Assembly: GCA_965249145.1 (NCBI GenBank)
Contig: OZ252223.1
Location: 2,121,757 to 2,185,756, forward strand
DNA length: 64,000 nt
Source: Dehalococcoidia bacterium
Lineage (GTDB): Bacteria > Chloroflexota > Dehalococcoidia > Lucifugimonadales > UBA3495
Direction: 5' to 3'
Part shown: piece after piece, positions 27,005 through 47,366 of the stretch
How the letters are laid out: each line of letters opens with the position of its first letter
How positions within the stretch are numbered: position 1 is the stretch's first letter
The notes under the pieces: generated by a model
What the model saw: only the letters and a program-made list of their open reading frames with translations
What the model was told of the DNA's origin: nothing
The model's database searches: none
Made by a program: the position numbers and the translations under genes

Positions 27005-28240
27005 TTGCTGAAGGTGGGAGAAGTGAAAGAGATCTACGAGATGAAAGGAGCGGGGCGTTCCATACGGCGGATCGCCGGGGAACTGGGCATCGGCAGGAAC
27101 ACGGTGCGCCGGTATCTGAAATCGCCGGAGGCCATCAGGGCCAAACCTCGACCGCAGCGAGCATCCAAGCTGGACCCCTACACCGGGTACGTCGACCGTC
27201 GCCTGGAGGAGGGGCTGGAGAACTGCGTGGTGCTGCACCGGGAGTTGAGGGCCCGGGGCTATGAGGGCGGCTACTCGATCCTGAAGTCCTACGTGTCGCC
27301 GCGGCGGCGACCCCGGCAGCCGGATGCCACGATGCGTTTCGAGACAGCGCCAGGGGAGCAGGCGCAGGTGGACTGGGGCAGCCTAGGCTACCTTGACGAG
27401 GCCGGCAAGAGGCGTCGCATCTGGGTGTTCGTGATGACCCTGGGCTGGTCCCGGGCCTGCTATGTGGAGTTGGTCAGGCGGGCGGACACCGCCGCCTTCA
27501 TCCAGTGCCACGTGAATGCCTTCGAGTATCTGGGCGGTGTGCCGCGGCGCTGCCTCTACGACAATGCCAAGGTGGTGACCCTGGGCAGGGACGAGGACCA
27601 GATGCCGCTGTGGAACCAGCGGATGCTGGACTTCGCCATGCGGGTGGGTTTCGAGGTCCGGCTTTGCCGTCCCTACCGGGCCCAGACCAAGGGCAAGGTC
27701 GAGAGCGGCGTCAAGTACGTCCGGCGCAACATGTGGCCCAGCATGCGCTTCACCGACGACGCCGACCTGAATCGCCAGGGGCTGGAGTGGTGCGACACGG
27801 TGGCCAACCGGCGGATCCACGGGACCACCCACCGGGTGCCCGGGGAGATGCTGGCCGAGGAGCGGCCACACTTGGGGAAGCTGCCCGGCCGGAATGCACT
27901 GGCACCCTATCTCCGGGAGGACCGCAAGGTGGCCCGGGACGGCTTCATCAGCTGGGAGGGCTCCCGCTACGGAGTCCACTGGAAGTGGGCCGGTCGCATC
28001 GTCCAGGTGGGACGGCGCCAGGGCACGGTGGAGATCTGGGCCGGCGATGAGCGCATCGCGGTCCATCCCCGGGCCCAGCGGGCAGGACAGCGCTTCATCC
28101 TGCCCGGCCAGTGGGTAGGACTGCCCAGGGGGGATGGCCGGCCACGCCGGGAAGCGGTGGCGGTGCAGATCCCCGTTGGTGAGGTGGAGCGCCGCTCTCT
28201 GGACGCATACGGACTGGCCGCCGTGGGAGGTGCCAGGTGA
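27005..28240 (+). CDS. istA: IS21-family transposase IstA
   Basis: N-terminal HTH (GRSIRRIAGELGIGRNTVRRYL) and a DDE core (QVDWG..., YDNAK, KGKVES). Confidence 0.9.
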   Translation: MLKVGEVKEIYEMKGAGRSIRRIAGELGIGRNTVRRYLKSPEAIRAKPRPQRASKLDPYTGYVDRRLEEGLENCVVLHRELRARGYEGGYSILKSYVSPRRRPRQPDATMRFETAPGEQAQVDWGSLGYLDEAGKRRRIWVFVMTLGWSRACYVELVRRADTAAFIQCHVNAFEYLGGVPRRCLYDNAKVVTLGRDEDQMPLWNQRMLDFAMRVGFEVRLCRPYRAQTKGKVESGVKYVRRNMWPSMRFTDDADLNRQGLEWCDTVANRRIHGTTHRVPGEMLAEERPHLGKLPGRNALAPYLREDRKVARDGFISWEGSRYGVHWKWAGRIVQVGRRQGTVEIWAGDERIAVHPRAQRAGQRFILPGQWVGLPRGDGRPRREAVAVQIPVGEVERRSLDAYGLAAVGGAR

Positions 28241-29043
28241 TCGCCCTGGAACAGGCCCGCCAGTACCTGGAAAGTCTCGGACTCAAGCAGGCGGTGGAGG
28301 TCTTGGACAACACCCTGGACACCGCCGCCAGCAAGCAGCTGACCTATCCCGAGATGCTGGAACAGCTGCTGGGCGCCGAGGTGGCGGCCCGGAGGGAGCG
28401 CTATCTTTCCACCCGGACCAAGATGGCCCACTTCCCCTTCCAGCGGACCCTGGAGCAATTCGACTTCGCCTTCCAGCCATCCATCGACGAGCGGCAGGTC
28501 GAGGAACTGGCCAACTTGGCCTTCGTGGCCGAAGCCACCAACATCCTGCTGCTGGGGCCACCCGGCGTGGGGAAGTCGCACTTGGCGGTGGCCCTGGCCA
28601 AGAGGGCCATCGAGCGTGGCTACGGGGCCTACTTCGTCCGGGCCTACGACCTAATGGAGGACCTGCGCAAGGCCAGGGCGGAGCACAACCTGGACCGGCG
28701 GCTGCGCATCTACCTGGCGCCCAAGGTGCTGGTGGTGGACGAGTTCGGCATCTGGCCCTACGACCGGGACGCCGCCACCGCTTTCTTCACCCTGGTGTCG
28801 GCCAGGTACGAACGGGGCAGCATCATCCTGACATCGAACAAGGGCTTCGGTGAGTGGGGCGAGCTTTTGGGCGACACCGTCATTGCCTCGGCGGTGCTGG
28901 ACCGGCTGCTGCACCACAGTCATGTGCTCAACATCCGTGGCGAGAGCTACCGGCTCAGGGAGAAACGACAGTCCGGAATCTTCAGTTCGCATCACCTGCT
29001 GGGAGCAATGCCGGCTAGTGGCAACGACAACTATCCCGACTGA
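28237..29043 (+). CDS. istB: IS21-family helper ATPase IstB
   Basis: LLLGPPGVGKSHLAVAL (Walker A), VLVVDEFG (Walker B), ILTSN. Overlaps the istA stop. Confidence 0.9.
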   Translation: MIALEQARQYLESLGLKQAVEVLDNTLDTAASKQLTYPEMLEQLLGAEVAARRERYLSTRTKMAHFPFQRTLEQFDFAFQPSIDERQVEELANLAFVAEATNILLLGPPGVGKSHLAVALAKRAIERGYGAYFVRAYDLMEDLRKARAEHNLDRRLRIYLAPKVLVVDEFGIWPYDRDAATAFFTLVSARYERGSIILTSNKGFGEWGELLGDTVIASAVLDRLLHHSHVLNIRGESYRLREKRQSGIFSSHHLLGAMPASGNDNYPD

Positions 29044-29234
29044 CAGAGTCGCTGGCCAATTGGCTGCTGACGAAGTCGCTGGACATTAGCTGGGTGGGTC
29101 AATTTTAGCTTGGCGGTCCTGAAAACCAACAAGCAGGAGGTGGGTCAATTCCAGATCGGCGGTAAGAATAACCGGAACCTGGTGGGTCAGATCACCATCG
29201 GCGATACCGGGTCATTTCTCCGTCGGCGTTGACA

Positions 29235-29900: not shown

Positions 29901-30320
29901 TTAGGTTACGATCCGTTCGTATTCGTAATCCGGGCTGTCTCGGCGTAGGAACTCAGGCTCCTGTCCGATCACGATCCCGTCTCTGAGCGCGCTCGCGACC
30001 ACATCGTTTATGGTCCTTCGTCTCCTCGAGAATTCCTCCGTGGTGATCCATACGATACCCTCGGATACCCGGCTGCCGTATTCTTCCTCCGTGTAGGTCC
30101 GGATCTTGTTCCATACCCTGCGCACCTGCTCTTCGGAGGGCGTGGATCCCTGCACCAACATAATGTCTATGTCGGATTGGTCCTCTCGGTAGTCGCCCCG
30201 GGCGCGGGAGCCAAAGAGGATAGTGAATTCAGGACGCTCGGAATCGTGCAGTTTCTGGACAACCCGAAGGGCCCTAGGATCAGATGGTTTCATGGTCTCG
30301 TCTTCCTGATCGGATCCCAC
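29901..30320 (-). CDS. minimal nucleotidyltransferase (MNT), HEPN/MNT module
   Basis: LFGSRARGDYREDQSDIDIM is the G-S-x(n)-D-x-D polymerase-beta-type NTase motif. An alternative start lies at 30293. Confidence 0.75.
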   Translation of the reverse strand: MGSDQEDETMKPSDPRALRVVQKLHDSERPEFTILFGSRARGDYREDQSDIDIMLVQGSTPSEEQVRRVWNKIRTYTEEEYGSRVSEGIVWITTEEFSRRRRTINDVVASALRDGIVIGQEPEFLRRDSPDYEYERIVT

Positions 30321-30511
30321 GCAGTGTTTTGCGCTCTGCCCGAACGCACCAGCATGGCCAATGGTTTACTCGCTGGGAGGATCCCCGCAGTCCATCTGCA
30401 AGAAACTGCGACACACTGGGCCTCACCAGAGCAGCCCCAGACATAATAGAAATATCGATAACCGGGCACGCCAGTTGGGAGGCCAGTGTCAACGGCATCA
30501 CGCGAGTCAGA

Positions 30512-31246
30512 GTGGCCTACGGACAAGCCACAATCCCGACCCAACCCATCGAATTTGAAGAGTTTAAAGACATCGCAGAACGCACCATCATCGGTGACGT
30601 CAATATAAAAGCAATCTGGGAGATGGTCCAAGCTGCCCAGGGAAGTGGACACGGCGCCATGATAGTGATATCAAGTGCTCCAGACGCGGAAGCCGAACGC
30701 CTCAGCAACGAGGGAATGCCGATTGACGCCGACTACCTAGACCCAGAGGAAATCGTTAGGCTGAGCTCCGTAGACGGGGCAGTGATAGTTGCACCTGATG
30801 GTCGCTGTCACGCCTTTGGCGTCATCCTAGATGGGGTGGCAAACGAGAGCGGGGACCGCTCTCGGGGCTCGCGATTCAACTCCGCTGTCCGCTACCAGAA
30901 CATGGAAGAGGCACCTTCAATGGTTGTCGTCGTATCAGACGACGGAACAGTGGACGTACTGCCACGGCTCATGCCTAGAGTACGTAAAGCCGAGGTGGAG
31001 GCAGCTGTTAACGGCTTCTGCCATTACTGCGAGTCTGAATCTGTCGACAGCGAAGTCTTCGCACGGTTGCACGGGAGAGTAAAACGTCTAGAGTTTTACC
31101 TTGACGAGGAACAGTGCCGTAGGATGAGCGAGGCGTACGAGCAGGAGATGGGTCGGCGATCAGCAGGCGGTGGGCTTAAGCTAAGCGAGGGAGGCCTTAA
31201 GCCTAACCCTGAGATGAACGAGTCCTACTTCGTCTGGGACCCCTAG
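30512..31246 (+). CDS. DisA_N (diadenylate-cyclase fold)-like protein with divergent catalytic motif and C-terminal helical extension
   Basis: GHGAMIVIS, VDGAVIVAPDG (DGA motif), GSRFNSAVRY in place of GTRHRAA, and MVVVVSDDGTVDVL. The start is uncertain: GTG at 30512, and the upstream part of the ORF overlaps the MNT gene. Confidence 0.55.
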   Translation: MAYGQATIPTQPIEFEEFKDIAERTIIGDVNIKAIWEMVQAAQGSGHGAMIVISSAPDAEAERLSNEGMPIDADYLDPEEIVRLSSVDGAVIVAPDGRCHAFGVILDGVANESGDRSRGSRFNSAVRYQNMEEAPSMVVVVSDDGTVDVLPRLMPRVRKAEVEAAVNGFCHYCESESVDSEVFARLHGRVKRLEFYLDEEQCRRMSEAYEQEMGRRSAGGGLKLSEGGLKPNPEMNESYFVWDP

Positions 31247-31316: not shown

Positions 31317-31934
31317 TTAAGGCACCGATGCCAGGCGACCCGCCGGGTCTGGCACCAACTCCAAGTAAATCAACGTCGTGGTGATCGACTTGTGGCCCAA
31401 CCACCGCGACAAATAGTTGATGGGAACACCGTGTAACAGCAGGTGCCGGGCGTAGGAATGCCGGAAAGTGTGAGTCCCGATTTGCCGGCCGGCGGGCAGG
31501 GCGCCCAGCTCCACGGCCCGGTCAACAGCTGACTGGACCCACCGCCAGGCGCGGATAATGCCGCCCTTCGATATGTCGGCGAACTGCAGCACGGCGACCA
31601 AGGCGTTTTGCAGCTCGGGGTGGACCGGCACGATCCGGCTACGCCCGCCCTTGCCCGACCGGACCTTGATGGTTGGTTGGTCCGAGTCGAGCGACAGGTC
31701 AGCGGCTTGCAGAGCCAGGGCCTCGGAGACCCTTAGTCCAGCTCGCCACTGAAGCAGCATGAGCAGGCGGGCCCGCGGGTTAGGGGAGGCTGCCAGGACC
31801 GCCTGGACTTCCCGGGCTTCGAGGTACTCCGGCAGAGTGGAACCTTTCTCTCCGGGAAATTGTTGCACCGGGGACTTGCGGGGGTGCTGGCCCCGGGGTC
31901 GGCGCGCGATTGCGGTGTTGGGGTTCGCCGGCAT
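31317..31934 (-). CDS. short tyrosine recombinase (catalytic domain only, 205 aa)
   Basis: WRAGLRVSEALAL (Arg I), HTFRHSYARHLL (H-x-x-R), LGHKSITTTLIYLE (His/Tyr). There is no N-terminal arm- or core-binding domain. Confidence 0.85.
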   Translation of the reverse strand: MPANPNTAIARRPRGQHPRKSPVQQFPGEKGSTLPEYLEAREVQAVLAASPNPRARLLMLLQWRAGLRVSEALALQAADLSLDSDQPTIKVRSGKGGRSRIVPVHPELQNALVAVLQFADISKGGIIRAWRWVQSAVDRAVELGALPAGRQIGTHTFRHSYARHLLLHGVPINYLSRWLGHKSITTTLIYLELVPDPAGRLASVP

Positions 31935-32108
31935 AGGTGCAACAATAGGACTGATTTTGTTGCACGGTCAACCGGCCAACGTCAGTAACACCGGTGAAGC
32001 CTACCGCGCTGGTGGACCGGCGACCGCCCCAGTTCTAACAGTATCCAGATTCTTGGCAGAGGCCAGTTAGGCGCTACCTGCCGGACGTGGCCTTGGCCTC
32101 CTGACTCC
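31871..32108. repeat. module A: integrase 5' codons, palindromic site and about 145-bp upstream arm
   Basis: Near-identical to 35468-35709 and partly to 34027-34167. Confidence 0.8.
31939..31963. promoter_or_regulatory. 9-7-9 inverted repeat GCAACAATA-GGACTGA-TTTTGTTGC embedded in a putative leaderless integrase promoter
   Basis: It sits 4 nt from the integrase ATG. On the minus strand, TTGACC-N18-TATTGT-N7-ATG is conserved in all three module copies. Confidence 0.5.
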
Positions 32109-32289
32109 TCGGTCCCGTGCTCGGCGTCGGCCGGTGGCCGGCTGGTGCCTCTTCAACTCGCCTGCCGCCAGGAGCAACATTCCCGGCGATGTGCAAGATG
32201 CCAGATCCTCGCCGCCAAAGAGACACCGTTGGTACCGACAGGTCGAAGGCTTCCGCCAAGGCTGCGTCTGACCAGCCCAACCCATGGAG

Positions 32290-32450
32290 AAACCCGCTGG
32301 GACATGCTGAACGCGGTGACCGAATTCGTTGACCACCGCCGCGGAGGCCAAGGGTCGGTTGAGCCGGGCGTACAGGCCAAGCGGCTGCACAGCGCTTGGT
32401 TCGGGGCCGGCGCGCAACTAAAGCAAAGGACCTGGGACACATTGGCGCGG
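32290..32450 (+). pseudogene. C-terminal fragment of a DUF932-type (phage/plasmid-like) protein
   Basis: WDMLNAVTEFVDHRRGG...AKRLHSAWFGAGAQLKQRTWDTLA resembles the conserved DUF932 C-terminus. No N-terminal part is present. Confidence 0.35.
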
Positions 32451-32585
32451 CGTCAGACCTCCTTACCGATCCCGCTATGCAGTACGGGCGGTCGAAAAGG
32501 TGCAGCCGACTTGCCCAAGTGTGCGCCCTACTTCACAATGGTGGACACCCAGCCCTGGATTGAAGTTGGGGAGGGGGTGACCTAA

Positions 32586-33806
32586 ATGTCCCACATGGCA
32601 ACATGGCTGACTCCCTTACGTCTTTGCGTACTTGTGCTGATTCTTCTGGCGCTGCTGGCCGCCTGTGGTTCGGATGCGCCGCCGGACACGCCCTCGCCAA
32701 CATCCAGGCCAGCAATTACAAACACATCGCCCGAAACGGACCGGGAAGCGCTGGTCGCGCTATACAGTGCCACGGCCGGCCCAAACTGGCGTCGTAACGT
32801 CAACTGGTTGAGCGAAGAGCCTATCGGCGAATGGTTAGGCGTGACCACCGACGACAATGGCCGGGTGACAGGCCTGGACCTCAGCGAACAAGGTTTGAGC
32901 GGGGAGATACCGGCGGAGTTGGGCAACCTGGCCAGCCTGAGATCGCTGGACCTCTACAGTAACCAGCTGAGTGGGGAGATACCGCCGGAGTTGGGCAACC
33001 TCGCCAGCCTGGAAGTGCTGAGCCTCTACGACAACCAGCTGAGCGGGGAGATACCGCCGGAGTTGACCAAACTCTCCAGCCTGACAGTGCTGAACCTCGC
33101 CGCAAACCAGCTGAGCGGGGAGATACCGGCGGAGTTGACCAAACTCTCCAACCTGACAGTGCTGAATCTCCCCGCAAACCAGCTGAGCGGGGAGATACCG
33201 GCGGAGTTGGTCACACTCTCCAACCTAATAGTGCTCAGCCTCGTCTATAACCAGCTGAGCGGGGAGATACCGCCGGAGTTGGCCAACCTGGCCAGCCTCG
33301 AAAAGCTGTGGCTCCGTGGCAACCAGTTGAGCGGGGAGATACCGCCGGAGTTGGCCAACCTGGCCAGCCTCGAAAAGCTGTGGCTCCGTGGCAACCAGTT
33401 GAGCGGGGAAATACCGCCGGAGTTGGGCAAACTCGCCAGCCTGGAATCGCTGTATCTCGGGCTCAACCAGTTGAGCGGGGAGATACCGCCGGAGTTGGGC
33501 AACCTCGCCAGCTTGGGATTCCTGGGCCTCAGGGGCAACCAGCTGAGCGGGGAGATACCGCCGGAGTTGGGCAACCTGGCCAGCGTGGAGTTGCTGTATC
33601 TCGCCGGAAACCAGCTGAGCGGAGCGATACCGCCGGAGTTGGGCAACCTGGCCAGCCTGAAAGGACTCGGCCTCACCGGAAACCAGCTGAGCGGGTGCGT
33701 ACCAGGCAGCTTGCAACGCCGATTGTTTATGAGTACTCCGACTTGGGCGGCCTGCCGTTTTGCTGAGGGCCTGCCTCATTATTCGGCAGCAATCGCAGGA
33801 CGGTAA
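32586..33806 (+). CDS. leucine-rich-repeat lipoprotein (plant-type LRR, about 13 repeats)
   Basis: Lipobox LLAACGS, LRRNT-like REALVALYSATAGPNWRRNVNWLS...W.GVT, then 24-residue LxxLxLxxNQLSGEIPPELGNLAS repeats. The last about 15 codons appear frameshifted; the expected end ...YEYSDLGGLPFC* is at 33766. Confidence 0.8.
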   Translation: MSHMATWLTPLRLCVLVLILLALLAACGSDAPPDTPSPTSRPAITNTSPETDREALVALYSATAGPNWRRNVNWLSEEPIGEWLGVTTDDNGRVTGLDLSEQGLSGEIPAELGNLASLRSLDLYSNQLSGEIPPELGNLASLEVLSLYDNQLSGEIPPELTKLSSLTVLNLAANQLSGEIPAELTKLSNLTVLNLPANQLSGEIPAELVTLSNLIVLSLVYNQLSGEIPPELANLASLEKLWLRGNQLSGEIPPELANLASLEKLWLRGNQLSGEIPPELGKLASLESLYLGLNQLSGEIPPELGNLASLGFLGLRGNQLSGEIPPELGNLASVELLYLAGNQLSGAIPPELGNLASLKGLGLTGNQLSGCVPGSLQRRLFMSTPTWAACRFAEGLPHYSAAIAGR

Positions 33807-34026
33807 ACGGAGTGATTTCGCGTTCTCCACGTGCCCCGTAATTGGGGCCACCCTACGGCATATCTACGACCCCCATTGCCTCCGAAGCGGAGTTGATGTG
33901 GTAAACCAGCCGGCGGTGCTGGCGGGCAAGCCGGGTATTGTTCCGCATCGGCCTGGCGTCGGCAAATCCCGGGTCTGTCAACAGCATCAGCTACCGCCAC
34001 CTCGGCTCCCATTACGGAAGATTCCT

Positions 34027-34167
34027 CGCGGGGGTGCTGGCCCCGGGGTCGGCGCGTGATTGCGGTGCAGGCGGTGGTCGTCATTGACGCAACAAAATCC
34101 TTCCTTTTGTTGCACGGTCAACCGGCCAACGTCAGTACCACCGGCGAAGCCTATCGCGCTGGTGGAC
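34027..34167. repeat. module B: integrase-start remnant, palindrome GCAACAAAA-TCCTTCC-TTTTGTTGC and first about 55 bp of the arm
   Basis: Remnant ORF start MTTTACTAITRRPRGQHPRE compares with MPANPNTAIARRPRGQHPRK of the intact integrase. Homology to modules A and C ends at ...gctggtggacc. Confidence 0.75.
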
Positions 34168-34477
34168 CTTCCCCGGTGGATAGTTCAGCTCGATTAGGTA
34201 TGGGCCAACTTCCGAACAGCACTCAGCATTTATTACGCACTTCTCACATTCTTGGCGTGGGGGATTGTTGATTGTTGCCTTCCTGGGGTTCCCCTGCTCC
34301 CCAACGCGATGAAGCAGTCGACAATTAGTGTACGCTATAGCAGCCACTGTACCTTGCCGGGGGTTCCTTGCCTGTCCTTCGGTGATTTGGAACGGCCTCT
34401 GGCCGCAGTACCTCCACCTTGACAAAGGGTATATGTCTCACTAGTTTTAGTTTACGCATCACTGAAAGGGGCGCGTT

Positions 34478-34729
34478 TTGTTTAGGTTACTCAAATGGGG
34501 CCGGAATCCGGATAAAGACGAGGCGCTAGATAGACCAGAAATTCATGTCAGGCCTAACGGTACGATATACGTCAAACCTGGCGAACTTCTTCGAAGCAAA
34601 AGAGGGAAAGCCGTAGTCGATAGGATGCTGAAAGCAGACCTTACGAAACTCAAGAAGAGAGCAAACAGGAAAAGAATGGCCCTTCGGAGACGGAACCTCC
34701 GCCGGCGGACTGAGAGAACCGATAATTGA
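34478..34729 (+). CDS. small protein with a highly basic tail, function unknown
   Basis: 83 aa with C-terminal KKRANRKRMALRRRNLRRRTERTDN. TTG start, stop overlapping the next start, and visibly lower GC than the surroundings. Confidence 0.4.
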   Translation: MFRLLKWGRNPDKDEALDRPEIHVRPNGTIYVKPGELLRSKRGKAVVDRMLKADLTKLKKRANRKRMALRRRNLRRRTERTDN

Positions 34730-35409
34730 CCATTGGTCTGCTTCTGCTGCCCGCCGTGGGTGGCTATTGGTTTCTTACTCACTGGAATTTCACCCGGTAC
34801 CGTGCAGCGCGACAATCCGGCTATCACCTTCTTTTCCGATCCGCCCTGTTTGGCATCGTTCTCTACTGCGCCGCCCGCTTCATCACGCTGGCCATTGACG
34901 TCCGCTACCCGTCGGCAACCGGGTTTTGGGACGATCATTTCCCTGAGCCGTTCACCAGCGAAGTGGTGGTGAGCCTCGTCTTGGCCGTTCTGATACCCCC
35001 AGTGTTCAACTTGTTTTACTCCAAAGATAGAGGTGCTGAGAAAGTGGCGGAAGATTCAGGTGATCACATCGAACTACTCATTGCCGACTCTATCAGAAAC
35101 CCAATGCCCATTGAGGTAACTCTCCGTAATAGGAAATCTTATATCGGACTGGCTCTGAACAGCGGAATAGGCAGCACTACTGAAGCCGACATAGAGCTGG
35201 TCCCGATGTATAGCGGCTACCGCGACAAAGAAACCCTTGACCTGGAAATAACCTTGGACTATGTCCCTGTGGTTTCAGATTACCTGGAAGACCCGGCGTG
35301 GTTAGAGGAAGATTTCAGGGTCGTGATCCCGCTGTCTGAAATCGTGTCAGTTCGACTTTTCGACGAAGAAGCTTACGACGAATTTCAGGGGTGGCGCGAC
35401 ATACCATAA
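34726..35409 (+). CDS. membrane protein (3-4 TM) with C-terminal soluble domain, function unknown
   Basis: 227 aa with hydrophobic N-terminal half. Translationally coupled to the preceding ORF. Lower-GC cassette. Confidence 0.5.
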   Translation: MTIGLLLLPAVGGYWFLTHWNFTRYRAARQSGYHLLFRSALFGIVLYCAARFITLAIDVRYPSATGFWDDHFPEPFTSEVVVSLVLAVLIPPVFNLFYSKDRGAEKVAEDSGDHIELLIADSIRNPMPIEVTLRNRKSYIGLALNSGIGSTTEADIELVPMYSGYRDKETLDLEITLDYVPVVSDYLEDPAWLEEDFRVVIPLSEIVSVRLFDEEAYDEFQGWRDIP

Positions 35410-35467
35410 CCCAAGCAATAGGTCGGCTAATGTCGGAACCCTCCGGCGGACCAGGAGCCACCCTCCG

Positions 35468-35709
35468 AACCCCGGGGCCTTGCGGGAGTGCTAGCCCAGG
35501 GGACGACGGGTGATTGAAGTCCTAGCAGTGGTGGTCATTGGTGCAACAATATGCTCGATTTTGTTGCACGGTCAACCGGACAGCGTCAGTACCACCGGCG
35601 AAGCCTACCGCGCTGGTGGACCGGCGACCGCCCCAGCTCTGACAGTATCCAGATTCTTAGCGGTGGCCAGTTAGGCGCTACAGGCCGCCGGCCGAGGCCT
35701 CCTGACCCC
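35468..35709. repeat. module C: decayed integrase start (contains a stop), palindrome GCAACAATA-TGCTCGA-TTTTGTTGC and full upstream arm
   Basis: Aligns with module A over about 240 bp. Confidence 0.8.
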
Positions 35710-35742
35710 TCTATCCGGGCTTGACGCCGGCCGGGCAGGCCG

Positions 35743-36325
35743 TCAGCAAAACGGCAGGCCGCCCAGGTCGGAGTACTCCATATCCAATTGGCCCTGCAAG
35801 CTGCCTGGTACGCACCCGCTCAGCTGGTTGCCGTTGAGGCGCAGCCGGGTTAAGCGGGCGAGGTTGCCCAACTCCGGCGGGTATCCACCCGCTCAGCTGG
35901 TTGTTTTGGAGCCACAGACCCTGCAGGTTGGCCAGGTTGCCCAACGCCGGCGGTGTATCCCAGGTCAGCTCGTTCGAGGAGAGGTCCAGCACTCGCAGGT
36001 TGGCCAAGTTGCCCAACGCCGGCGGTATTTCCCCGCTCAACTGGTTATCGTTGAGGACCAGTTGTGTAACGAGGCCGGCGACGTTAGTGTCGACTCCACG
36101 CCAAAGGAACATTGGTGCGTCGCTCAGCCAGTTTTCGTTATGCATCCAAGTGGGGCCGTCCGTGGCGTTGTAGAGGGCGACCAACGCTTCCCGGTCCGTT
36201 TCGGGTGATGTGTTTACAAGGGCTGAACTGGCGGGTGTGTCCGAACCGCAGGCGGCGAGCAGAGGCAGAAGAAACAGCACAAGGCCGTAAAGATGTAAGG
36301 GAGCCAGCCGTGTGGGCGTCACCAT
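35743..36325 (-). pseudogene. LRR lipoprotein with a 1-nt frameshift near the 3' end
   Basis: Lipobox LLAACGS, REALVALYNATDGPTWMHNENWLS, then LRRs. Frame is lost at the run near 35879-35881. The corrected reading ends ...GNQLSGCVPGSLQGQLDMEYSDLGGLPFC* at 35743. Confidence 0.65.
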
Positions 36326-36531
36326 GGGAGTGTCGGCACGTATACCGCAACTATGACAAGTCGCCCATGCCAAAGTTGCAAGGTGACCTTCTTGAGGAGC
36401 CACCACAAAGCACCGGGCGCAGAGTTCAGCAAAGGCTACCCATCACCCTATACGTTGTCCATTGTGATAACGGCCGCTGCCGTATCAGCTTTGGTTGTGA
36501 TACTAGGGGTTGCCGCGACTCCCGCTCAACG

Positions 36532-38385
36532 TCATTCGCCGTGCCACGGTGGCAAGACAATTTCGCCCCCTCCCCAGCAGATGACGGTGCCGTCGGTTCT
36601 GACCCCGCAGGTGTAGTTGCTCCCGGCGCTGACAGAGACGAACTCCCCGCCTGGTGGCGTGGCCTCACCATTGAAATCATTGCCCCAGCAGGCAATGGAG
36701 CCGTCGGTTCTCACTCCGCAGGTATGGTTGTTACCGGCGCTGACGGAGACGAACTGCGATGCGGGCGGCGTGGCCTGGCCTTCTTCATTATTGCCCCAGC
36801 AGGAGATGGAGCCGTCGGTTCTCACTCCGCAGGTGTGGTAGGATCCGGCGCCGAGGGAGACGAAATCCCCTTGAGGCGGCGCGGCTTGGCCGTATTGATC
36901 AAGACCCCAGCAGGAGACGGAGCCGTCGGTTCTAACACCGCAATTGTGGTCGTAACCGGCGCTGAGGGCGGCGAATTGCCCCCGGGGCGGAGTGGATTGG
37001 CCGCGGTGGTCATAGCCCCAGCAGGAGACGGAGCCGTCGGTCCTCACCCCGCAAGTGTGGGACAGACCAGAGCTGACGGAGCCGAATCCCCCTGGGGGCG
37101 GCGAGTTTCGTCCTTTGCGATCATCCCCCCAGCAGTCAATTGAGCCGTCGGTTCTCACTCCGCAGGTGTGGTTGTACCCGGCGCTGACAGAGGCGAACTC
37201 CCCTTGGGGCGGCGTGGCCTGGCCGTGGCTATTATTGCCCCAGCAGGCGGCTAACCCGTCGGCCCTCGTCCCGCACGCGTGCCAGGACCCGGCGCTAACG
37301 GAGGCGAATTCCCCGGTGAACGGCGAGGCCCTGAGGTAGGATTCATTGCCCCAGCAGGAGACGGAGCCGTCGGTTCTCACTCCGCAGGTGTGGTAGTACC
37401 CGGCGCTGACGGAAGCGAATTCTCCCTGAGGTGGGGTGGCTTGGCCGGAATCATTATTGCCCCAGCAGGAGACGGAGCCGTCGGTTTTCACTCCACAGGC
37501 GTGGCTCCCGCCAGCGCTGACGGAGGCGAAATTGCCGGTTGTTGGCGTGGAACGGACAACGATACGACTTCCCCAGCAGGAGATGTAGCCACCGTGCCTC
37601 ACCCCGCAGCTGTGCCAGTTCCCGGCGCTGACGGAGACGAACTGCGATGCGGGCGGCGTGGCTTGGCCGGAATCATTATTGCCCCAGCAGGAGACGGAGC
37701 CGTCGGTCCTCACCCCGCAGGTGTGGAAGTACCCGGAGCTGACCGAGGCGAAGTCCCCCTGGGGTGCCGCGGCCTGGCCTTCTTCATCATTGCTCCAGCA
37801 GGAGACGGAGCCGTCGGTCCTCACCCCGCAGGTGTGGAAGCCCCCGGCGCTGACGGAGGCGAATGCCCGGGTTGGCGGCGTGACCAGGCCATGAGAATTA
37901 TCACCCCAGCAGGCGACCGAGCCGTCGGTTCTCACCCCACAGGAGTGGCTCCCGCCAGTGCTGACGGAGGCGAATTGCCATTGGGGCGGCGTGGCCAGGC
38001 CATGAGAATTATCACCCCAGCACACGACGGAGCCGTCGGTTCTCACGCCGCAAGAGTGGTGTAACCCGGCGCTGACGGAGGCGAACCTGACCTCCCCATT
38101 TTCGACATCACTGCCTCCGCCCACCTCGGGGTTGGCGTCGCCCGCTTCTTCAGTGTCGTCCGGTTGGGCGGTAGGCTCAGGAGTTGACGTGGAGGTAGAT
38201 GTCTGCGTCGGTGAAGGTACCGGGGTGTTCGTCGGACTCGTTGTTGCCAGTGACTCAGGTGTGAATCCGGGCCTCGGAGTCGCCGTGGGAAGCGGGGTCG
38301 GCGTAGGAGTGACGGCGGGTTCGGCCTCACAGGCAATTGCGAGCAGGAGTGCGAGGCCCAGTGCAATGGCCGTCGCCAGCTTCAT
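36532..38385 (-). CDS. RCC1-repeat lipoprotein (about 22 repeats)
   Basis: Lipobox LLAIAC and a Pro/Thr-rich linker, followed by repeated F.SVSAG..HTCGVRTDGSV.CWG.N..GQATPP units. Confidence 0.85.
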   Translation of the reverse strand: MKLATAIALGLALLLAIACEAEPAVTPTPTPLPTATPRPGFTPESLATTSPTNTPVPSPTQTSTSTSTPEPTAQPDDTEEAGDANPEVGGGSDVENGEVRFASVSAGLHHSCGVRTDGSVVCWGDNSHGLATPPQWQFASVSTGGSHSCGVRTDGSVACWGDNSHGLVTPPTRAFASVSAGGFHTCGVRTDGSVSCWSNDEEGQAAAPQGDFASVSSGYFHTCGVRTDGSVSCWGNNDSGQATPPASQFVSVSAGNWHSCGVRHGGYISCWGSRIVVRSTPTTGNFASVSAGGSHACGVKTDGSVSCWGNNDSGQATPPQGEFASVSAGYYHTCGVRTDGSVSCWGNESYLRASPFTGEFASVSAGSWHACGTRADGLAACWGNNSHGQATPPQGEFASVSAGYNHTCGVRTDGSIDCWGDDRKGRNSPPPGGFGSVSSGLSHTCGVRTDGSVSCWGYDHRGQSTPPRGQFAALSAGYDHNCGVRTDGSVSCWGLDQYGQAAPPQGDFVSLGAGSYHTCGVRTDGSISCWGNNEEGQATPPASQFVSVSAGNNHTCGVRTDGSIACWGNDFNGEATPPGGEFVSVSAGSNYTCGVRTDGTVICWGGGEIVLPPWHGE

Positions 38386-38503
38386 AGGTCAGGAGCCATG
38401 ATGGGGCACTATAGTGGTGGGCAGCGCGGCAGTCAACGGGGAAGCAGGTTAAGCATCCCCATTCCGTTGGACGCGGCGCCAGCGGCGCCTGAGAACGGCG
38501 TTC

Positions 38504-38692
38504 TTACCCGGATCCGGGTTGCTCTGTATCCGACTCTTCCCTGACCTCGCGCATCGCGTCAGTCAGTCGCCCGAATTGTTCCTCGGTGAGCTCGGGGGAG
38601 TCATCGTCATCGAGGAACGATGCCGCGTACATGGCTTCCTTGCTGACGCGGTAGTGCGTGATTCCGTTTTCGTCTACCCATGAGGTGGTCAT
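38504..38692 (-). CDS. small acidic protein, last gene of the polyvalent-protein operon
   Basis: 62 aa, rich in D/E (FLDDDDSPELTEEQF...EESDTEQ). Its start overlaps the stop of the 1030-aa gene (ATGA). Confidence 0.45.
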   Translation of the reverse strand: MTTSWVDENGITHYRVSKEAMYAASFLDDDDSPELTEEQFGRLTDAMREVREESDTEQPGSG

Positions 38693-41600
38693 TGCGTCTT
38701 GATTATCTCCATCTTAAAGTCGTCCACGCCCTTGAAGACCACTTCGTCCTCACTGGTGAAAGAGCCGGTTGTGTGGGCTAGGTCGGTGAGGATTATCGAG
38801 TCGACAGGCACTTCGGCTTTCGCCACAAAGGAGCCGTGGCCCCCCTGGAAGTTGTGCGCCACCGAGGGAGAGAAGCTCCAGGAGTAGAGCGGGGGGTCGT
38901 CCAGGTTAACAATTGAGCCCACCTGGGAATTTTTCAGGCCCAGGTACTTCACCTGGTCGGGCTTCCAGCCCCGGTAGACCGTGATCTTGTCCTTGCCTGG
39001 GCGCTTCATCGCCATCAGGACCTCGTTCTGTTCGCTGGTGACCTTCAGGCCCTTTACCAGGTCCTGGGCCTCCGGCTCGGCGGTAGCCTTCTTCATATAG
39101 TCGGCGTACTCTTTCCGGTTCTTTGCCGAAAGAGCCCCTTCCTTGACCAGAAACTCGTTGAACTTATCCAGCCTCCGCAGCTCCTGGTCTCCTTCGGCGT
39201 GCAGCTCGCCGGCGCCCCAACGAAGGACCGAGCCCCCGGGACTAATTGACGACCCCTTCCAGCTCCCGTACCGGGACCGCACCCTATCGGCGGCTGCGCT
39301 TCCCTCGGTTTGTCCCAGCTCCATGGCCATTATCTTTTCAGTCAGTTGCCATTTGGCGTCGGGACCAGGGGAGCTGATCTTGTAGCCGTTGGCTTTGTCG
39401 GCGATCGCCTCTACGCTCGCGTCCTTCAGGTCCGAGAGCCCCTTCAGCTGCTGCAGCGTGGCAGCCTTCTTCTGTTGCTGCTTCAGGACCTTCTCCACGA
39501 TGTAATCCCTGCGCTGCTTAAGACGGCTTTTGACCAACCCGGGCAGGTCCTTGGCGGCCTCTCCGAATTGGGAGACCGGGTATTCGGGCGACGTCTTGGG
39601 CAGGTCGGCGCTATCTACGGCAAAGTCGATCTGGTCATCGGTAATGGCGGCCACCCGTTCCGCGCTCGCCGCAATTTCCGCCGAAGACATATCGGCGAAA
39701 ACTTTGGAGGCCTCCTTGGATTGGCTAGGATTGCGCATGGTGTCTATTTCCTGGACGGTTTCGGGGAAGTCCCGGCCTTTCCCCTGGGCCCGGAACAGCA
39801 GGCTGCCGCCCACGTCGGTCCGGTAAGCCTTGTCCCCAGGTCCTCCTACCACGTTATCCGCCTGCAGGCCCACAACGTCCCAATTCGCCAGCCAAGCGTC
39901 GACCGCAAAGCCGGCCCGGACGTCCGGGTGGACTCTCATATCCTCAAAGGTCATCGGGGCGGCCTCGTCGATCCAGTCGGACATCACCGCGTCCTTGCCC
40001 TGGAAGTTGATGACGCGGACGGACGGGACCGGGACCTCCGCGTAGCTGTACAGCAGGGCAGTGAGCCCTTCCATCTTGGCCCGGGCCTCGGAGTTCGGCC
40101 ATTTCACGTAGTGCAGCGATCCGAGGTGTTTGTCCTTGAACAGACCCCCTTCGTTGGAGCCCTTCTTGCCGGAGATTTTCTGTAGGTCAGCATTGTAGTC
40201 CTTAGTGCCCTGCTTGATCTGGTTGCGGTGCTTTTTCAACGTCGCGGCGGCCGGGGTTTCCTGCCCGGGTAATTTCACCTCGCCGCTGCCAACGCTGGCC
40301 ATGGTGTCGCCGAAGCCGGAGCCGCCATCTCCCTCCAGGACCGGCTGCCCCTGGACCTTGCCTTTCAGCTCGGCTGCAACATTCAGGACGGCCGCCTTCT
40401 TGGCCGGACTCAGCATCTTGGCCAACAGAGTCCCGGCCACCTGGTCCACCTCGTCGGGGCTTCCGGTTTGGGCAGCCTTTTCCAGCTTCTTGACGTTGAC
40501 GGGCGTGATCAGGGCCTTCCCCTTGTTGTCATGGGGGACAACACCGGCAGTTATCGGATCGGCCTGTTGCGACGCCGGCGTCGGCGCTGGTGCGGGGGCC
40601 TGGTCATCCTGGTCATCCACCGAGGAGCTTCCGCCCACGGCGATCGCGTCCAGTTGGCCCTGCAGCGCGCCCACAACGTCGAAGAGCGCCTTCTTGGCGG
40701 CCGGAGTCTTGTAGCTTGGCCCTGCTGCCATGATGTTGGCGGTCGCCGTGAGGAAGCCCTTGTCGCCGGTCACCGCGACAGTCTCGAGCTGCTTGACCTG
40801 GCCCGCATCGATCCCAAACGGGATGCCCGCCAGCGTGGGCTTGCCGGTAACTGCGGCCTGGGCCTCAGCCGCTTTTTTGTTTGCCTCGATGAGCTGGTTC
40901 TCCAGCTCATTCGCGGCCTTTTGTACCAGGTGCTTCTTGCCGTATTGGCCGGTCTGGTCCACCAGGTCCTTGGCCGTCTGATGCAGGGTGTCTATATTGC
41001 CAGTTGAAGCGGCGCCCTCGAGCAGGTTTATCTCGCTTTCGGTCAGCGGGTCGTCGTCATAGTGGCCATCGGTATCCATTGGTTTGAGCTTGGCCGCGAA
41101 GGTGCCCCTGACGCCCTTCGTTTCTCCGGCATAGCCGGCGGCGTTGAGCATGCGCCATTCGGCTTGGTAGCCGAGGGCGTGGAAGGTCAGGAACCACGCT
41201 TGGAAGTGCTTGCCCCTGTGGGCCTTGTCCGGGCGGCCGTCGTGGTCGAGCGGGCCCCATTCCACGAACTCCGGAACGTTCTCGATGAGGACGCACCTGA
41301 CGTCCAGCTTCGTCAGCCAGTTGTGAATCGCCCAAGGGTTCATCCTGCCTTGGTCGTGGACCGGCTTTCCGCCGCGGGCGCGGGAGTAGAACTTGCACTC
41401 CGGGCTGGCCATGAGCAGGTCGAGGCGTCCCTCTTCGACCACCGCCTCCGGGTCCACGATGCTGACATCCTCGACCAGGTGCCGGGCGGATGGGTGGTTC
41501 GCTGAGTGGGTCGCGACTGCGATGTTCCAGTGGTTGACGGCGACCAGCTCCATCGACCCGCCGATCTCGGCGATGGCCTTCTTGGCGCCGGTCGACGAGC

Positions 41601-47307: not shown

Positions 47308-47366
47308 GGCTGGGGTCTGGCTAGGACTCCTGATCCAGAGTCATACGTCCTATTACTGCTCCCCGC
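47308..47366 (-). pseudogene. decayed tRNA-Gln-like relic directly 3' of the intact tRNA-Gln
   Basis: Shares GGCTGGGG...CTGATCCAGAGTCA..CGTCCTA with the adjacent tRNA. It lacks the T-arm and has mismatched stems. Confidence 0.45.

What the first reader, a model, noticed from the sequence alone, without database searches (positions are those of the whole stretch)
31317..35710. Three direct copies of an integrase-start / 9-7-9 palindrome / upstream-arm module bracketing cargo cassettes
**Seen in sequence.**
- A 205-aa catalytic-domain-only tyrosine recombinase starts 4 nt from GCAACAATA-GGACTGA-TTTTGTTGC.
- The module comprises the first about 20 integrase codons, the palindrome, and up to 145 bp beyond. 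It recurs at 34027-34167 and 35468-35709 in the same orientation. In those copies the integrase is reduced to a start-codon remnant (MTTTACTAITRRPRGQHPRE; the third copy has an internal stop).
- The 9-bp arms are conserved, but the 7-bp spacers all differ: GGACTGA, TCCTTCC, TGCTCGA.
- On the minus strand every copy keeps TTGACC-N18-T(A/T)TTGT-N7-ATG. That is a leaderless-type promoter with the palindrome across it.
- Between the modules lie discrete cargo blocks: a DUF932 fragment plus an LRR lipoprotein, then a low-GC two-gene cassette, then LRR and RCC1 lipoproteins.

**Established knowledge.** Tyrosine-recombinase core sites are inverted 9-13-bp arms around a 6-8-bp overlap region. Tandem accretion of elements at one att site leaves attP-like junctions.

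**Inference.** Two readings are possible:
- A tandem array of related small integrative elements whose integrases decayed.
- A cassette-type system in which the conserved module is the recombination or expression unit, loosely reminiscent of integron logic but built differently.

The differing spacers argue against simple recombination between the copies.
Basis: partly seen in the sequence, partly recalled or inferred. Interest (0 to 1): 0.75.

Follow-up and report, generated by a model that had tools for sequence, protein, structure and literature searches.

The report
Decayed tandem copies of small recombinase genes
The three repeats are the promoter, a recombinase-binding palindrome and the first 20 or so codons of three related small tyrosine-recombinase genes, one near-intact and two truncated; they lie in a decaying variable island of a probable Dehalococcoidia chromosome and do not form an integron-like cassette system.

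Summary
Three diverged direct copies of arm, 9-7-9 palindrome and integrase 5' end lie at about 31871-32114, 34021-34168 and 35475-35711.

The module is not a free-standing element. It is the conserved 5' end of a family of more than 2,000 minimal tyrosine recombinases of about 210 aa, whose closest relatives are Xer proteins. The named hits are Dehalococcoidia MAGs.

- **Palindrome P.** In every close relative, GTGCAACAAAA-N7-TWWTGTTGCAC sits between TTGAC(C/G) and a TATTGT-like -10 box, 4 nt before the ATG.
- **Second site S.** GTGCAAC-N18-GTTSCAC lies at codons 23-33, and its sequence changes together with the palindrome arms in distant relatives.
- **Spacers.** The 7-nt spacers are unconstrained across the family.
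- **Remnants.** Both window remnants stop just 5' of S. Remnants elsewhere stop at about +9, +40-60 and +250, and one lies downstream of its intact gene.
- **Polymorphism.** A close relative (L001) lacks the 4.2-kb block, but the indel endpoints lie outside P and S.

The region is full of pseudogenes. The best reading is tandem paralogous recombinase-plus-cargo units that decayed, with P and S as Int-binding sites that are probably autoregulatory. The integron-like reading is not supported.

The parts
31317..31934 (-). Near-intact small tyrosine recombinase gene (205 aa, catalytic domain only). It carries a 5-aa in-frame deletion relative to its family.
   Evidence: Pfam PF00589 covers residues 37-192, E 1.3e-21. 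More than 2,130 homologs of about 210 aa were found. In the alignment the catalytic residues R68, K95, H155, R158, H181 and Y190 are present, but the GVSRS segment is missing. The nearest solved structures are Xer catalytic domains.
31937..31965 (-). Palindrome P1. Read on the integrase strand it is GTGCAACAAAA-TCAGTCC-TATTGTTGCAC. It lies between the -35 box (31966-31971) and the ATG, and its right arm overlaps the -10 box.
   Evidence: The same site sits at the same distance from the ATG in L001 (two genes), L002, L003, L053, L085, L197-199, L206 and L209.
31837..31868 (-). Internal site S at integrase codons 23-33: GTGCAAC-N18-GTTCCAC. Both remnants end at its 5' edge.
   Evidence: GTGCAACAA occurs only in the modules. 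S starts at +68 in 9 of 11 relatives examined; L053 gives +62 under a different ATG call and the L200 gene has no TGCAAC there. It covaries with the palindrome arms in distant relatives L141-143 and L165. It forms a full inverted repeat in L206. Gln codons at S are CAA in 13 of 13 cases, against 21 of 57 elsewhere in these genes.
31966..32114 (-). Upstream arm A1. It holds the -35 TTGACC, a conserved CTGAC box, and the 3' end plus downstream spacer of an HTH gene.
   Evidence: A1 is 93% (distal part) and 85% (proximal part) identical to the arm of L001a.
32074..32442 (-). Frameshifted, 5'-truncated HTH pseudogene. It is homologous to the 133-aa gene that follows the integrase in L002.
   Evidence: blastp hits fall in two reading frames, E 3e-6 and 2e-4. 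There is a weak HTH_23 match.
32277..32400 (+). Weak C-terminal fragment of a DUF932 protein, abutting the HTH pseudogene.
   Evidence: Pfam E 0.006, profile positions 189-227 of 227, below the cut-off.
32586..33806 (+). LRR lipoprotein gene, frameshifted near its 3' end.
   Evidence: Pfam LRR families match. The lipobox LLAACGS is present. The true C-terminus YSDLGGLPFC lies in another frame, in ORF 33308-33766.
34021..34168 (-). Module copy 2. It comprises a short arm, palindrome P2 (34089-34113) and a 20-codon integrase remnant that starts at 34084 and ends just before where S would be.
   Evidence: Homology to L002 ends at +61.
34418..35388 (+). Two-gene cassette with its own TTGACA promoter. 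The genes are an 83-aa basic protein (34478-34729) and a 227-aa membrane protein (34726-35409). GC is 0.55-0.58.
   Evidence: The block recurs at 89.6% identity in L201, again beside an integrase module but with different flanks. No Pfam, NCBIfam or PADLOC match was found. The 227-aa protein has 134 homologs.
35475..35711 (-). Module copy 3. It comprises an arm with the last 10 or so codons of an HTH gene, palindrome P3 (35543-35567) and a 22-codon integrase remnant with an internal TAG, starting at 35538.
   Evidence: Homology to L002 ends at +65, 2-3 nt before where TGCAACAA would start.
35711..36325 (-). Second LRR lipoprotein gene, also frameshifted. It is an inverted paralog of 32586-33806.
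   Evidence: Inverted repeats I1-I25 include a 45-nt stretch at 96% (33731-33775 against 35734-35778). Pfam LRR families match. The true C-terminus lies in ORF 35743-35871.
36532..38385 (-). RCC1-repeat lipoprotein gene. It marks the start of the block syntenic with L001.
   Evidence: Pfam RCC1_2, E 1e-117. Window 36345-41129 matches L001 5032-9820 at 96.8%.

Best explanation
The module is the regulatory region and 5' end of a gene family, not an autonomous repeat.

**The family.** It comprises minimal tyrosine recombinases of about 210 aa with only a Xer-like catalytic domain. All named genome hits are Dehalococcoidia MAGs. Each gene carries three conserved features:
- a TTGAC(C/G) -35 box;
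- an 11-7-11 palindrome P whose right arm doubles as the -10 box, ending 4 nt before a probably leaderless ATG;
- a second imperfect palindrome S at codons 23-33.

**What the sites do.** P and S share the same half-site, and that half-site changes in step with the recombinase in distant relatives. The recombinase itself most likely binds both. My preferred mechanism is inferred, not shown: Int bound at P occludes its own promoter, possibly bridging to S about 100 bp away, so that the recombinase is autoregulated. The spacer is not contacted and drifts freely.

**What the window holds.** It contains three tandem, same-orientation copies of such genes, each with different neighbouring cargo, inside a larger variable or mobile island. 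That island carries methyltransferases, a DnaB-type helicase with a primase, a truncated anti-phage gene, an IS21 element and a nearby tRNA-Gln. Two of the three genes lost everything from S onward. The third survives with a 5-aa deletion.

**The arm.** The shared upstream arm is what remains of an HTH gene that once lay between consecutive units.

**How the array arose.** It probably arose by accretion or duplication of integrase-plus-cargo units, followed by deletions, frameshifts and an LRR-gene insertion or replacement. Active cassette shuffling is not needed to explain it.
For: **P is a family feature.**
- The palindrome sits at the same distance from the ATG in every close relative with sequence in hand: L001 (two genes), L002, L003, L053, L085, L197-199, L206-208 and L209-216.
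- The arms are 90-100% conserved, while spacer columns show only a 40-55% majority base.
- The promoter scan reports TTGACC-18-TATTGT, with the -10 box ending 7 nt before the ATG.

**S is a DNA-level site.**
- Its position is fixed at +68 in 9 of 11 relatives examined.
- Gln codons at S are CAA in 13 of 13 cases, against 37% elsewhere in these genes and 32% in window ORFs.
- Arm variants recur in S: GCGACAAA in L141-143 and TGAAACA in L165.

**Paralogs and fragments are common in relatives.**
- There are two family integrases within 7 kb in L001 and within 4 kb in L200.
- L126, L129 and L172 hold arrays of integrase 3' fragments.
- L206-208 hold an orphan module, L201 a codon-83 truncation, L197-199 an in-frame TAG, and L085 an integrase match split into two segments.

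**The locus is decaying.**
- Both LRR genes are frameshifted.
- The HTH gene is frameshifted and truncated.
- The DS2_3 anti-phage gene is only a C-terminal half, scoring 271 bits against a cut-off of 630.
- An IS21-like ORF pair lies at 27005-29043.

**The structural polymorphism is not site-specific.** The L001 indel endpoints (36345 and 32115) are not at P or S and share only CGG.

**The arm is unlinked from integrase phylogeny.** Copy 1 and L001a share a 93% identical arm. Copy 1 and L002 share only 48%, although both integrases are about 88-90% identical to copy 1.
Against: - **Breakpoints at S.** Both window remnants end within about 5 nt of the same position, immediately 5' of S (+61 and +65). 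For uniformly random breakpoints the second would fall that close to the first about 1% of the time (my estimate). This hints that S is a preferred breakpoint, which plain decay does not predict.
- **Conserved arms in dead genes.** The palindrome arms in the two dead copies are almost perfect (22/22 and 21/22 by my count on the and 22 alignments) while the coding remnant decays. They may still be under selection.
- **Arm versus coding identity.** The proximal arm is more similar among the three copies (84-92%) than the coding remnants are (67-84%). This suggests exchange at or near P.
- **Not demonstrated.** Neither binding of the recombinase to P or S nor the leaderless start is shown.
- **Unknown substrate.** The recombinase's true recombination substrate is unknown.
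Confidence: 0.58

Rival explanations
1. **Active modular recombination at P.** The palindromes are genuine dif- or lox-like core sites (11-7-11). The recombinase exchanges, inserts or excises the DNA blocks between them. This would resemble pdif modules or IMEX arrays at dif, with the recombinase gene physically linked to its site as in XerS/difSL.
For: - P has canonical core-site geometry, and the catalytic domain is nearest to Xer.
- XerS and XerH genes sit next to their sites (PMC5357621).
- Identity is discordant on the two sides of P. Copy 3 shares its arm with L001a (85-88%) and 6 of 7 spacer positions (direct comparison of TCGAGCA with TCGGGCA), but its coding remnant matches L002 (84%) and not L001a (49%).
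- The two-gene cassette lies next to the arm side of a module in two different contexts.
- The arms remain conserved in the dead copies.
Against: - The three spacers differ at 4-6 of 7 positions, so the copies cannot recombine with each other by the usual homology rule.
- P is almost never found without the integrase 5' end. None occurs in the 64-kb window and none in the 13 close-clade integrase-bearing loci; the single exception is L080, which holds only a distant paralog. No terminal bare site closes any array.
- The position of P is locked to the -35 and -10 boxes and the ATG, as expected for an operator.
- The L001 indel endpoints are not at P.
- The cassette-to-module intergenic DNA is not conserved between the window and L201.
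- The discordant identities can also come from homologous exchange at the only conserved patch.
Confidence: 0.17
2. **Integron-like or SSV-like capture at S.** Circular units of cargo, arm, P and integrase 5' end insert at S inside the resident integrase gene. Each insertion gives the gene a new 5' end and leaves the old promoter and 5' end behind. The remnants therefore pile up on the 5' side of one intact gene.
For: - Both window remnants end at the 5' edge of S.
- The intact gene is the last of the three in the direction of transcription.
- S is a conserved DNA site.
- The two-gene cassette is linked to the module downstream of it in both the window and L201.
Against: - The orphan module in L206-208 lies downstream of the intact integrase.
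- Other remnants end at about +9 (L080) and +250 (L201).
- The candidate split genes, the 188-aa MQQ... proteins, are nonsense mutants or calls lacking P, not clean splits at S.
- No orphan integrase 3' part exists in the window.
- The breakpoint is at the outer edge of the S half-site, not at the arm-spacer border where tyrosine recombinases cut (established knowledge).
- The sequences joined to the remnants share no motif.
- LRR(-) lies between the syntenic flank and arm 3, which this model does not explain.
Confidence: 0.1
3. **Chromosome-dimer resolution.** The recombinase and P form a XerS/difSL-type module at the replication terminus. The extra copies are scars of elements that integrated at this dif-like site.
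For: - The recombinase is Xer-like and linked to its site.
- The cumulative GC skew in the window peaks near 39 kb, a few kb from the locus.
Against: - Several paralogs occur per chromosome or contig.
- Many copies are pseudogenes.
- They lie among defence genes and IS elements.
- The protein lacks the core-binding domain that all Xer proteins have.
- The GC-skew trace is noisy at this scale.
Confidence: 0.04

Closest known systems
Single-recombinase Xer modules (XerS/difSL, XerH/difH)
   Same: - The catalytic domain is nearest to Xer proteins: XerA 4a8e at E 1e-24, and the NCBIfam XerA, XerC and XerD models are the top hits.
- An inverted-repeat site of about 30 bp lies directly beside the recombinase gene, as described for xerS/difSL and xerH/difH (PMC5357621).
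   Different: - The protein is about 210 aa with no core-binding domain.
- Scores fall far below every Xer cut-off, for example 103 bits against 220.
- Several paralogs and pseudogenes occur per genome, in variable islands.
- The site overlaps the gene's own promoter, and a second site lies inside the coding region.
Tandem accretion of integrative elements or islets at one locus
   Same: - Same-orientation repeats of integrase-proximal sequence separate unrelated cargo blocks.
- The integrases are decayed.
- Content differs between close relatives.
   Different: - No att-type direct repeats bound the units.
- The repeated sequence is the gene's promoter and 5' end, not an attachment site.
- The 7-nt spacers all differ.
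- The one mapped indel has non-specific endpoints.
Integrons (IntI, attI and attC cassettes)
   Same: - A tyrosine recombinase sits at one end of an array of cargo blocks separated by imperfect palindromes.
- Cargo in units 1 and 2 is transcribed divergently from the recombinase.
   Different: - The recombinase is not an IntI: it scores 79 bits on TIGR02249 against a cut-off of 265.
- The repeats are integrase 5' ends, not attC hairpins.
- The cassette has its own promoter.
- The polarity rule is broken in L206.
FimB/FimE-type small tyrosine invertases
   Same: Both are about 200 aa and consist essentially of the catalytic domain, acting on 9-bp inverted repeats (the latter from established knowledge).
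   Different: - The match is only weak: NF007371 at 42 bits against a cut-off of 222.
- The module copies are direct, not inverted.
- No invertible promoter segment was identified.
SSV1-type integrases, with attP inside the int gene
   Same: An N-terminal integrase fragment with its promoter is left next to foreign DNA. The break falls at a conserved site in the 5' coding region.
   Different: - No matching C-terminal integrase part is present within 64 kb.
- The protein is a bacterial Xer-like one.
- The breakpoints are not uniform across loci.

Membership tests
Integron | An IntI-type integrase, carrying the IntI-specific insertion and scoring above the integron-integrase model cut-off. | tested here: not met
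   TIGR02249 scores 79 bits against a cut-off of 265, and NF011946 scores 50 against 435. The match covers only the shared catalytic motifs.
Integron | Cassettes, mostly promoterless, each ending in an attC imperfect-palindrome hairpin. | tested here: not met
   The repeats are integrase promoter and 5' ends. The two-gene cassette begins at its own TTGACA promoter.
Integron | Insertion next to the integrase gene, so that remnants or cassettes have a fixed polarity relative to it. | tested here: not met
   The orphan modules are upstream of the intact gene in the window but downstream of it in L206-208.
Xer/dif dimer-resolution system | A two-domain Xer recombinase (core-binding plus catalytic) that meets the family model cut-offs. 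| tested here: not met
   Only the catalytic domain is present: Pfam covers residues 37-192 of 205, and PDB hits align to XerA residues 94-263. Scores are 103 bits against 220 for XerA and 88 against 335 for XerC.
Xer/dif dimer-resolution system | One conserved copy per chromosome, at the replication terminus. | tested here: not met
   Several paralogs share a contig, and many copies are pseudogenes. Terminus position could not be tested in a 64-kb window.
Xer/dif dimer-resolution system | A cognate inverted-repeat site with a 6-8 bp (11 bp in difSL) central region, linked to the gene in single-recombinase systems. | tested here: met
   An 11-7-11 palindrome lies 4 nt upstream of the ATG in all close relatives. 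Linkage in XerS and XerH is described in PMC5357621. Recombination at the site was not tested.
FimB/FimE-type DNA invertase | Membership of the tyrosine-type DNA invertase subfamily. | tested here: not met
   NF007371 scores 42 bits against a cut-off of 222, and NF007370 scores 20 against 221.
FimB/FimE-type DNA invertase | Inverted repeats flanking an invertible segment. | tested here: not met
   All three modules have the same orientation. The only long inverted repeats are the LRR gene paralogs.
Tandem array of site-specifically integrated elements | Units bounded by direct repeats of the attachment core, with identical overlap sequence, including a terminal site without an integrase. | tested here: not met
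   The spacers differ at 4-6 of 7 positions. No palindrome or half-site lies outside the three modules in 64 kb.
Tandem array of site-specifically integrated elements | Repeated integrase genes or fragments in one orientation, separating unrelated cargo that varies between relatives. | tested here: met
SSV-type split integrase | Both halves of the integrase gene present at the two ends of the integrated element. | tested here: not met
   tblastn finds only one integrase match in the window. The 188-aa MQQ... proteins are not clean splits.

The most novel reading that the evidence does not exclude
P and S are both active recombination sites of a self-contained system. In this reading the promoter and 5' end of the recombinase gene form an exchangeable module. 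Recombination at S, or at P, captures or releases cargo blocks and re-equips the recombinase gene with a new 5' end. That would be a cassette-capture platform mechanistically unrelated to integrons, and possibly widespread in defence and variable islands of Dehalococcoidia.
Probability: 0.1. Interest if true: 0.85.

Novelty: new variant of a known kind. Interest (0 to 1): 0.38.

Why it matters
The array itself is ordinary genome decay in a variable island. The gene family behind it is of moderate interest.

- **Scale.** More than 2,000 minimal, catalytic-domain-only, Xer-like recombinases were found. All named genome hits are Dehalococcoidia, and I found no description of the family in the literature searches I ran.
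- **Architecture.** The family has a fixed layout: a recombinase-type palindrome built into a probably leaderless promoter, plus a second related site about 100 bp downstream inside the coding region. Both sites co-evolve with the protein.
- **What could be learned.** If the sites are autoregulatory operators, this is a compact example of a recombinase repressing itself through core-type sites. If they are recombination substrates, the family could explain how cargo turns over in these islands, where defence genes cluster in an uncultured, environmentally important class.
- **Testability.** Either outcome can be tested with simple binding and reporter assays.

Tried and rejected
- **Genome-collection scan with the bare palindrome pattern.** The pattern was too unspecific. 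Only four Dehalococcoidia loci were useful.
- **Split integrases.** I predicted that the 188-aa MQQ... proteins were integrases split at S. L197-199 instead have an in-frame TAG just before the GTG of S. The second L200 gene lacks P but is not cut at S.
- **Hairpin around S.** Short inverted repeats flank TGCAACAA in about half of the relatives, but not in L002, L197 or L198. I do not count this as covariation.
- **tRNA-linked integration.** tRNA-Val lies 2-7 kb downstream of two family integrases, but no tRNA fragment duplicates bound those blocks. The 8.85-kb block shared by L209 and L210 is most simply conserved chromosome flanked by IS elements and an island, not proof of mobility.
- **Viral collection.** No module and no close family member was found, so phage carriage is unlikely.
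- **Exact-protein look-ups.** P0005 and the window's RCC1 protein are not on record, so the window's own genome and population could not be examined.
- **Literature searches.** Nothing was found on this family.
- **Cargo function.** Pfam, NCBIfam and PADLOC gave no function for the two-gene cassette.
- **Mosaic analysis around P.** The upstream arm is unlinked from integrase phylogeny and the coding remnant is the fastest-evolving segment. This cannot separate site-specific from homologous exchange.

Full report
**1. Observation**

The window holds a 205-aa ORF at 31317-31934 (-).
- Pfam Phage_integrase covers residues 37-192 (E 1.3e-21).
- PDB Xer hits align only to their C-terminal catalytic domains: XerA 4a8e residues 94-263 at E 1e-24.

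The description "catalytic-domain-only tyrosine recombinase" is therefore correct.

The ATG at 31934 lies 4 nt from GCAACAATA-GGACTGA-TTTTGTTGC at 31939-31963.

Three direct copies of the surrounding sequence exist.
- The repeat finder places them at 31868-32083, 34018-34233 and 35472-35687, with 65% and 83% identity to copy 1.
- A multiple alignment confirms them.
- A profile of the core module finds 31871-31992, 34021-34142 and 35475-35596 with E values of about 1e-30.

Diagnostic strings are far above chance.
- The 21-mer TTTTGTTGCACGGTCAACCGG occurs 3 times against 0 expected.
- GTGCAACAA occurs 6 times against 0.34 expected, every time inside a module.

The promoter scan reports the site for copies 1 and 3. 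Copy 2 has TTTTGT.

The copies are diverged, and related modules occur on independent contigs. This is not an assembly artefact.

**2. The module is the 5' end of a gene family**

The integrase has more than 2,130 homologs, nearly all about 210 aa. Several share a contig length with another family member.

All named genome hits are Dehalococcoidia long-read MAG chromosomes. No family member closer than about 31% identity is in IMG/VR.

In every close relative whose DNA I could read, the same architecture recurs at the same distances. These relatives are L001 (two genes), L002, L003, L053, L085, L197-199, L206-208 and L209-216. The shared elements are:
- a CTGAC box;
- TTGAC(C/G);
- GTGCAACAAAA-N7-TWWTGTTGCAC;
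- 3-4 nt;
- the ATG.

Arm columns are 90-100% conserved. Spacer columns show only a 40-55% majority base. The differing spacers in the window are therefore the family norm.

**3.

At integrase codons 23-33 (window 31837-31868) lies GTGCAAC-N18-GTTCCAC.

Three observations argue that it is constrained as DNA, not only as protein.
- Its start is fixed at +68 in 9 of 11 relatives examined.
- The two Gln codons there are CAA in 13 of 13 cases, against 21 of 57 elsewhere in the same genes and 32% in window ORFs.
- In distant relatives the half-site of S changes together with the arms of P: GCGACAAA in L141-143 and TGAAACA in L165.

In L206 it is a clean inverted repeat.

A protein that co-evolves with both sites is most simply the recombinase itself. 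The two sites are about 100 bp apart centre to centre. P lies across the -35 to -10 interval of what looks like a leaderless promoter.

From this I infer autoregulation by Int binding, possibly with P-S bridging. That step is inference. Nothing here shows binding.

**4. Anatomy of the array**

The order below is read in the direction of integrase transcription, which is the minus strand.
1. The RCC1 lipoprotein gene.
2. A spacer.
3. LRR(-), frameshifted.
4. Arm 3, P3 and a 22-codon remnant.
5. The two-gene cassette, on the opposite strand.
6. A short arm 2, P2 and a 20-codon remnant.
7. About 215 nt of unassigned sequence.
8. LRR(+), on the opposite strand and frameshifted.
9. A weak DUF932 3' fragment.
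10. An HTH pseudogene.
11. Arm 1, P1 and the integrase.

The distal arm shared by copies 1 and 3 and by L001 is the last 10-12 codons of an HTH gene plus its downstream spacer. The window's 32074-32442 ORF is a frameshifted, 5'-truncated homolog of the 133-aa gene that directly follows the integrase in L002.

The ancestral repeat unit was therefore probably integrase, then HTH, then the next integrase.

The surviving integrase lacks five residues (GVSRS), including a near-invariant Arg, although the canonical R-K-HxxR-H-Y residues are present.

The neighbouring genes show that this is a decaying variable or mobile island.
- A C-terminal half of a DS2_3 anti-phage protein, scoring 271 bits against a cut-off of 630.
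- A nucleotidyltransferase.
- An IS21-like ORF pair at 27005-29043.
- Two methyltransferases.
- A DnaB-type helicase with a primase.
- A tRNA-Gln with a 24-nt partial duplicate beside it.

**5. Comparison with relatives**

*L001.* This contig is 96.8% identical to window 36345-41129. It then continues directly into arm, P and integrase, which match window 32114-31321 at 84%. It therefore lacks the 4.2-kb block from LRR(-) to the HTH pseudogene. Cargo content is thus polymorphic between close relatives. However, the endpoints (36345 and 32115) lie upstream of the LRR(-) start and inside the HTH 3' end, not at P or S. They share only CGG. That looks like illegitimate deletion or insertion.

*L201.* The two-gene cassette (34418-35388) recurs at 89.6% identity, again beside the arm side of an integrase module.
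- Homology starts exactly at the cassette's own -35 box.
- The DNA between cassette and module is not conserved.
- The far flank differs.
- That integrase is truncated at codon 83.

*Other orphans.*
- L206-208 have a degenerate P with a remnant about 5 kb downstream of the intact gene, in the same orientation.
- L080 has a P with its -35 box, cut at about +9.
- A sister clade shows arrays of integrase 3' fragments.

Paralog accumulation and decay are therefore general. Neither the breakpoint nor the polarity is fixed.

**6. What remains odd**

- Both window remnants stop at +61 and +65 relative to L002, right at the 5' edge of S. I estimate that chance alone would place the second breakpoint that close to the first about 1% of the time.
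- The arms of P2 and P3 are almost perfect, 21/22 and 22/22 by my count.
- The proximal arm is more alike among the three copies (84-92%) than the coding remnants are (67-84%).
- Copy 3 shares its arm and most of its spacer with L001a, but its coding remnant matches L002.

These points keep alive the idea that P or S acts as a recombination hotspot. Against that stand several facts.
- The break is at the outer edge of the S half-site, not at the arm-spacer border where tyrosine recombinases cleave.
- The joined sequences share no motif.
- The predicted split genes (188-aa MQQ... proteins) turned out to be nonsense mutants or otherwise not cut at S.
- P is practically never found without the integrase 5' end, and no terminal bare site closes an array.

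**7. Comparison with known systems**

By sequence the nearest relatives are Xer recombinases, but every curated cut-off is missed by a wide margin and the core-binding domain is absent.

The gene-site linkage resembles XerS/difSL and XerH/difH (PMC5357621). The copy number, the pseudogenes and the island context argue against dimer resolution.

It is not an integron: IntI scores 79 bits against 265, there are no attC sites, the cassette has its own promoter, and polarity is inconsistent. It is not a Fim-type invertase system, because the match is weak and the repeats are direct. It is not an SSV-type split integrase, because no C-terminal partner is present.

It behaves like tandem accretion of integrase-bearing islets. 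It lacks the att repeats that define site-specific accretion.

**8. Verdict**

The array is ordinary decay. The underlying family, with its promoter-embedded palindrome and intragenic second site, appears to be an uncharacterised variant of small Xer-like recombinases and deserves a modest follow-up.

- Interest: 0.38.
- Most novel reading not excluded: P and S form a capture platform. Probability about 0.1.

Noticed in passing
window 47329-47352 and 47372-47445: tRNA-Gln(CTG) has a 24-nt partial duplicate of its anticodon-arm region about 20 nt beyond its 3' end (22 of 24 identical). This looks like an att scar. The adjacent 38.7-47.3 kb holds two methyltransferases and a DnaB-type helicase with a primase, so it may be an integrated replicative element.
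   Followed up: partly
window 32586-33806 (+) and 35711-36325 (-): Two LRR lipoprotein paralogs lie in inverted orientation around modules 2 and 3 and the two-gene cassette. Their signal-peptide regions are 85% complementary over 74 nt and their 3' ends 96% over 45 nt. Both are frameshifted just before the conserved YSDLGGLPFC terminus. Homologous inversion of the 2-kb segment between them is possible. An LRR 3' remnant also precedes the integrase module in L002 (9811-9882).
   Followed up: partly
window 30284-31246 (+) and 29901-30320 (-): The first ORF matches only the C-terminal half of NCBIfam NF053872, a DS2_3 anti-phage protein with a DAC-like domain (271 bits against a cut-off of 630). 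It sits next to a nucleotidyltransferase that hits the PADLOC candidate PDC-S09. This looks like a broken defence gene directly downstream of the integrase.
   Followed up: partly
window 27005-29043 and 29093-29206: An IS21-like pair of ORFs, judged by eye as IstA-like (411 aa) and IstB-like (268 aa) and not profile-checked, is followed by three direct 26-nt repeats (GGTGGGTCAAT...GGCGGT) spaced 46 and 42 nt apart. These are probably the multiple terminal repeats of the IS.
   Followed up: no
L197 9998-10003, L198 9672-9677 and L199 1832-1837: The same family integrase in three samples carries an in-frame TAG immediately before the GTG of site S, so gene callers start the protein at MQQ... (188 aa, P0037). 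It could be a pseudogene, or a variant expressed from the GTG inside S.
   Followed up: partly
L126 10423-10552, 14105-14234 and 16142-16271 (also L129 and L172): A sister clade, about 66% identical and mostly from the MKWU01 assembly, shows the mirror image of the window. An intact integrase is followed by two same-orientation 3'-end fragments that each keep about 20 nt past the stop codon, with different cargo between them. Its upstream sites use a different motif (GATTATCACGA/GTGAT).
   Followed up: partly
L080 1908-1967 and 4304-4344: A perfect-armed palindrome (TGCAACAAAATGCCCAATTTTGTTGCA) with a -35 region but no integrase coding remnant lies about 700 nt downstream of a 213-aa distant paralog (42% identity). 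A weaker second copy lies 2.4 kb away across a DDE-type transposase-like ORF (judged by eye, not profile-checked). This is the only P found without an integrase 5' end.
   Followed up: partly
L003 16955-17031 and L209 12534-12610: Two different family integrases, 78% and 70% identical to the window's, both lie 2-7 kb on the 5' side of a tRNA-Val(GAC) gene in the same orientation. No tRNA fragment duplicates were found. In L209, L211 and L212, a separate island with a D5_N primase and (in L212) a serine recombinase begins right after this tRNA; it is absent in L210.
   Followed up: partly
window 1-64000: The cumulative GC skew rises steadily to a maximum near 39 kb and then falls. At this scale that may only reflect gene orientation, but a position near the replication terminus cannot be excluded.
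   Followed up: no
window 38689-41781 (-): A 1,030-aa ORF fuses an N-terminal C5 cytosine methyltransferase domain (residues about 50-305) to a long uncharacterised C-terminal region. In L001 the corresponding DNA is called as separate genes of 208 and 472 aa.
   Followed up: no
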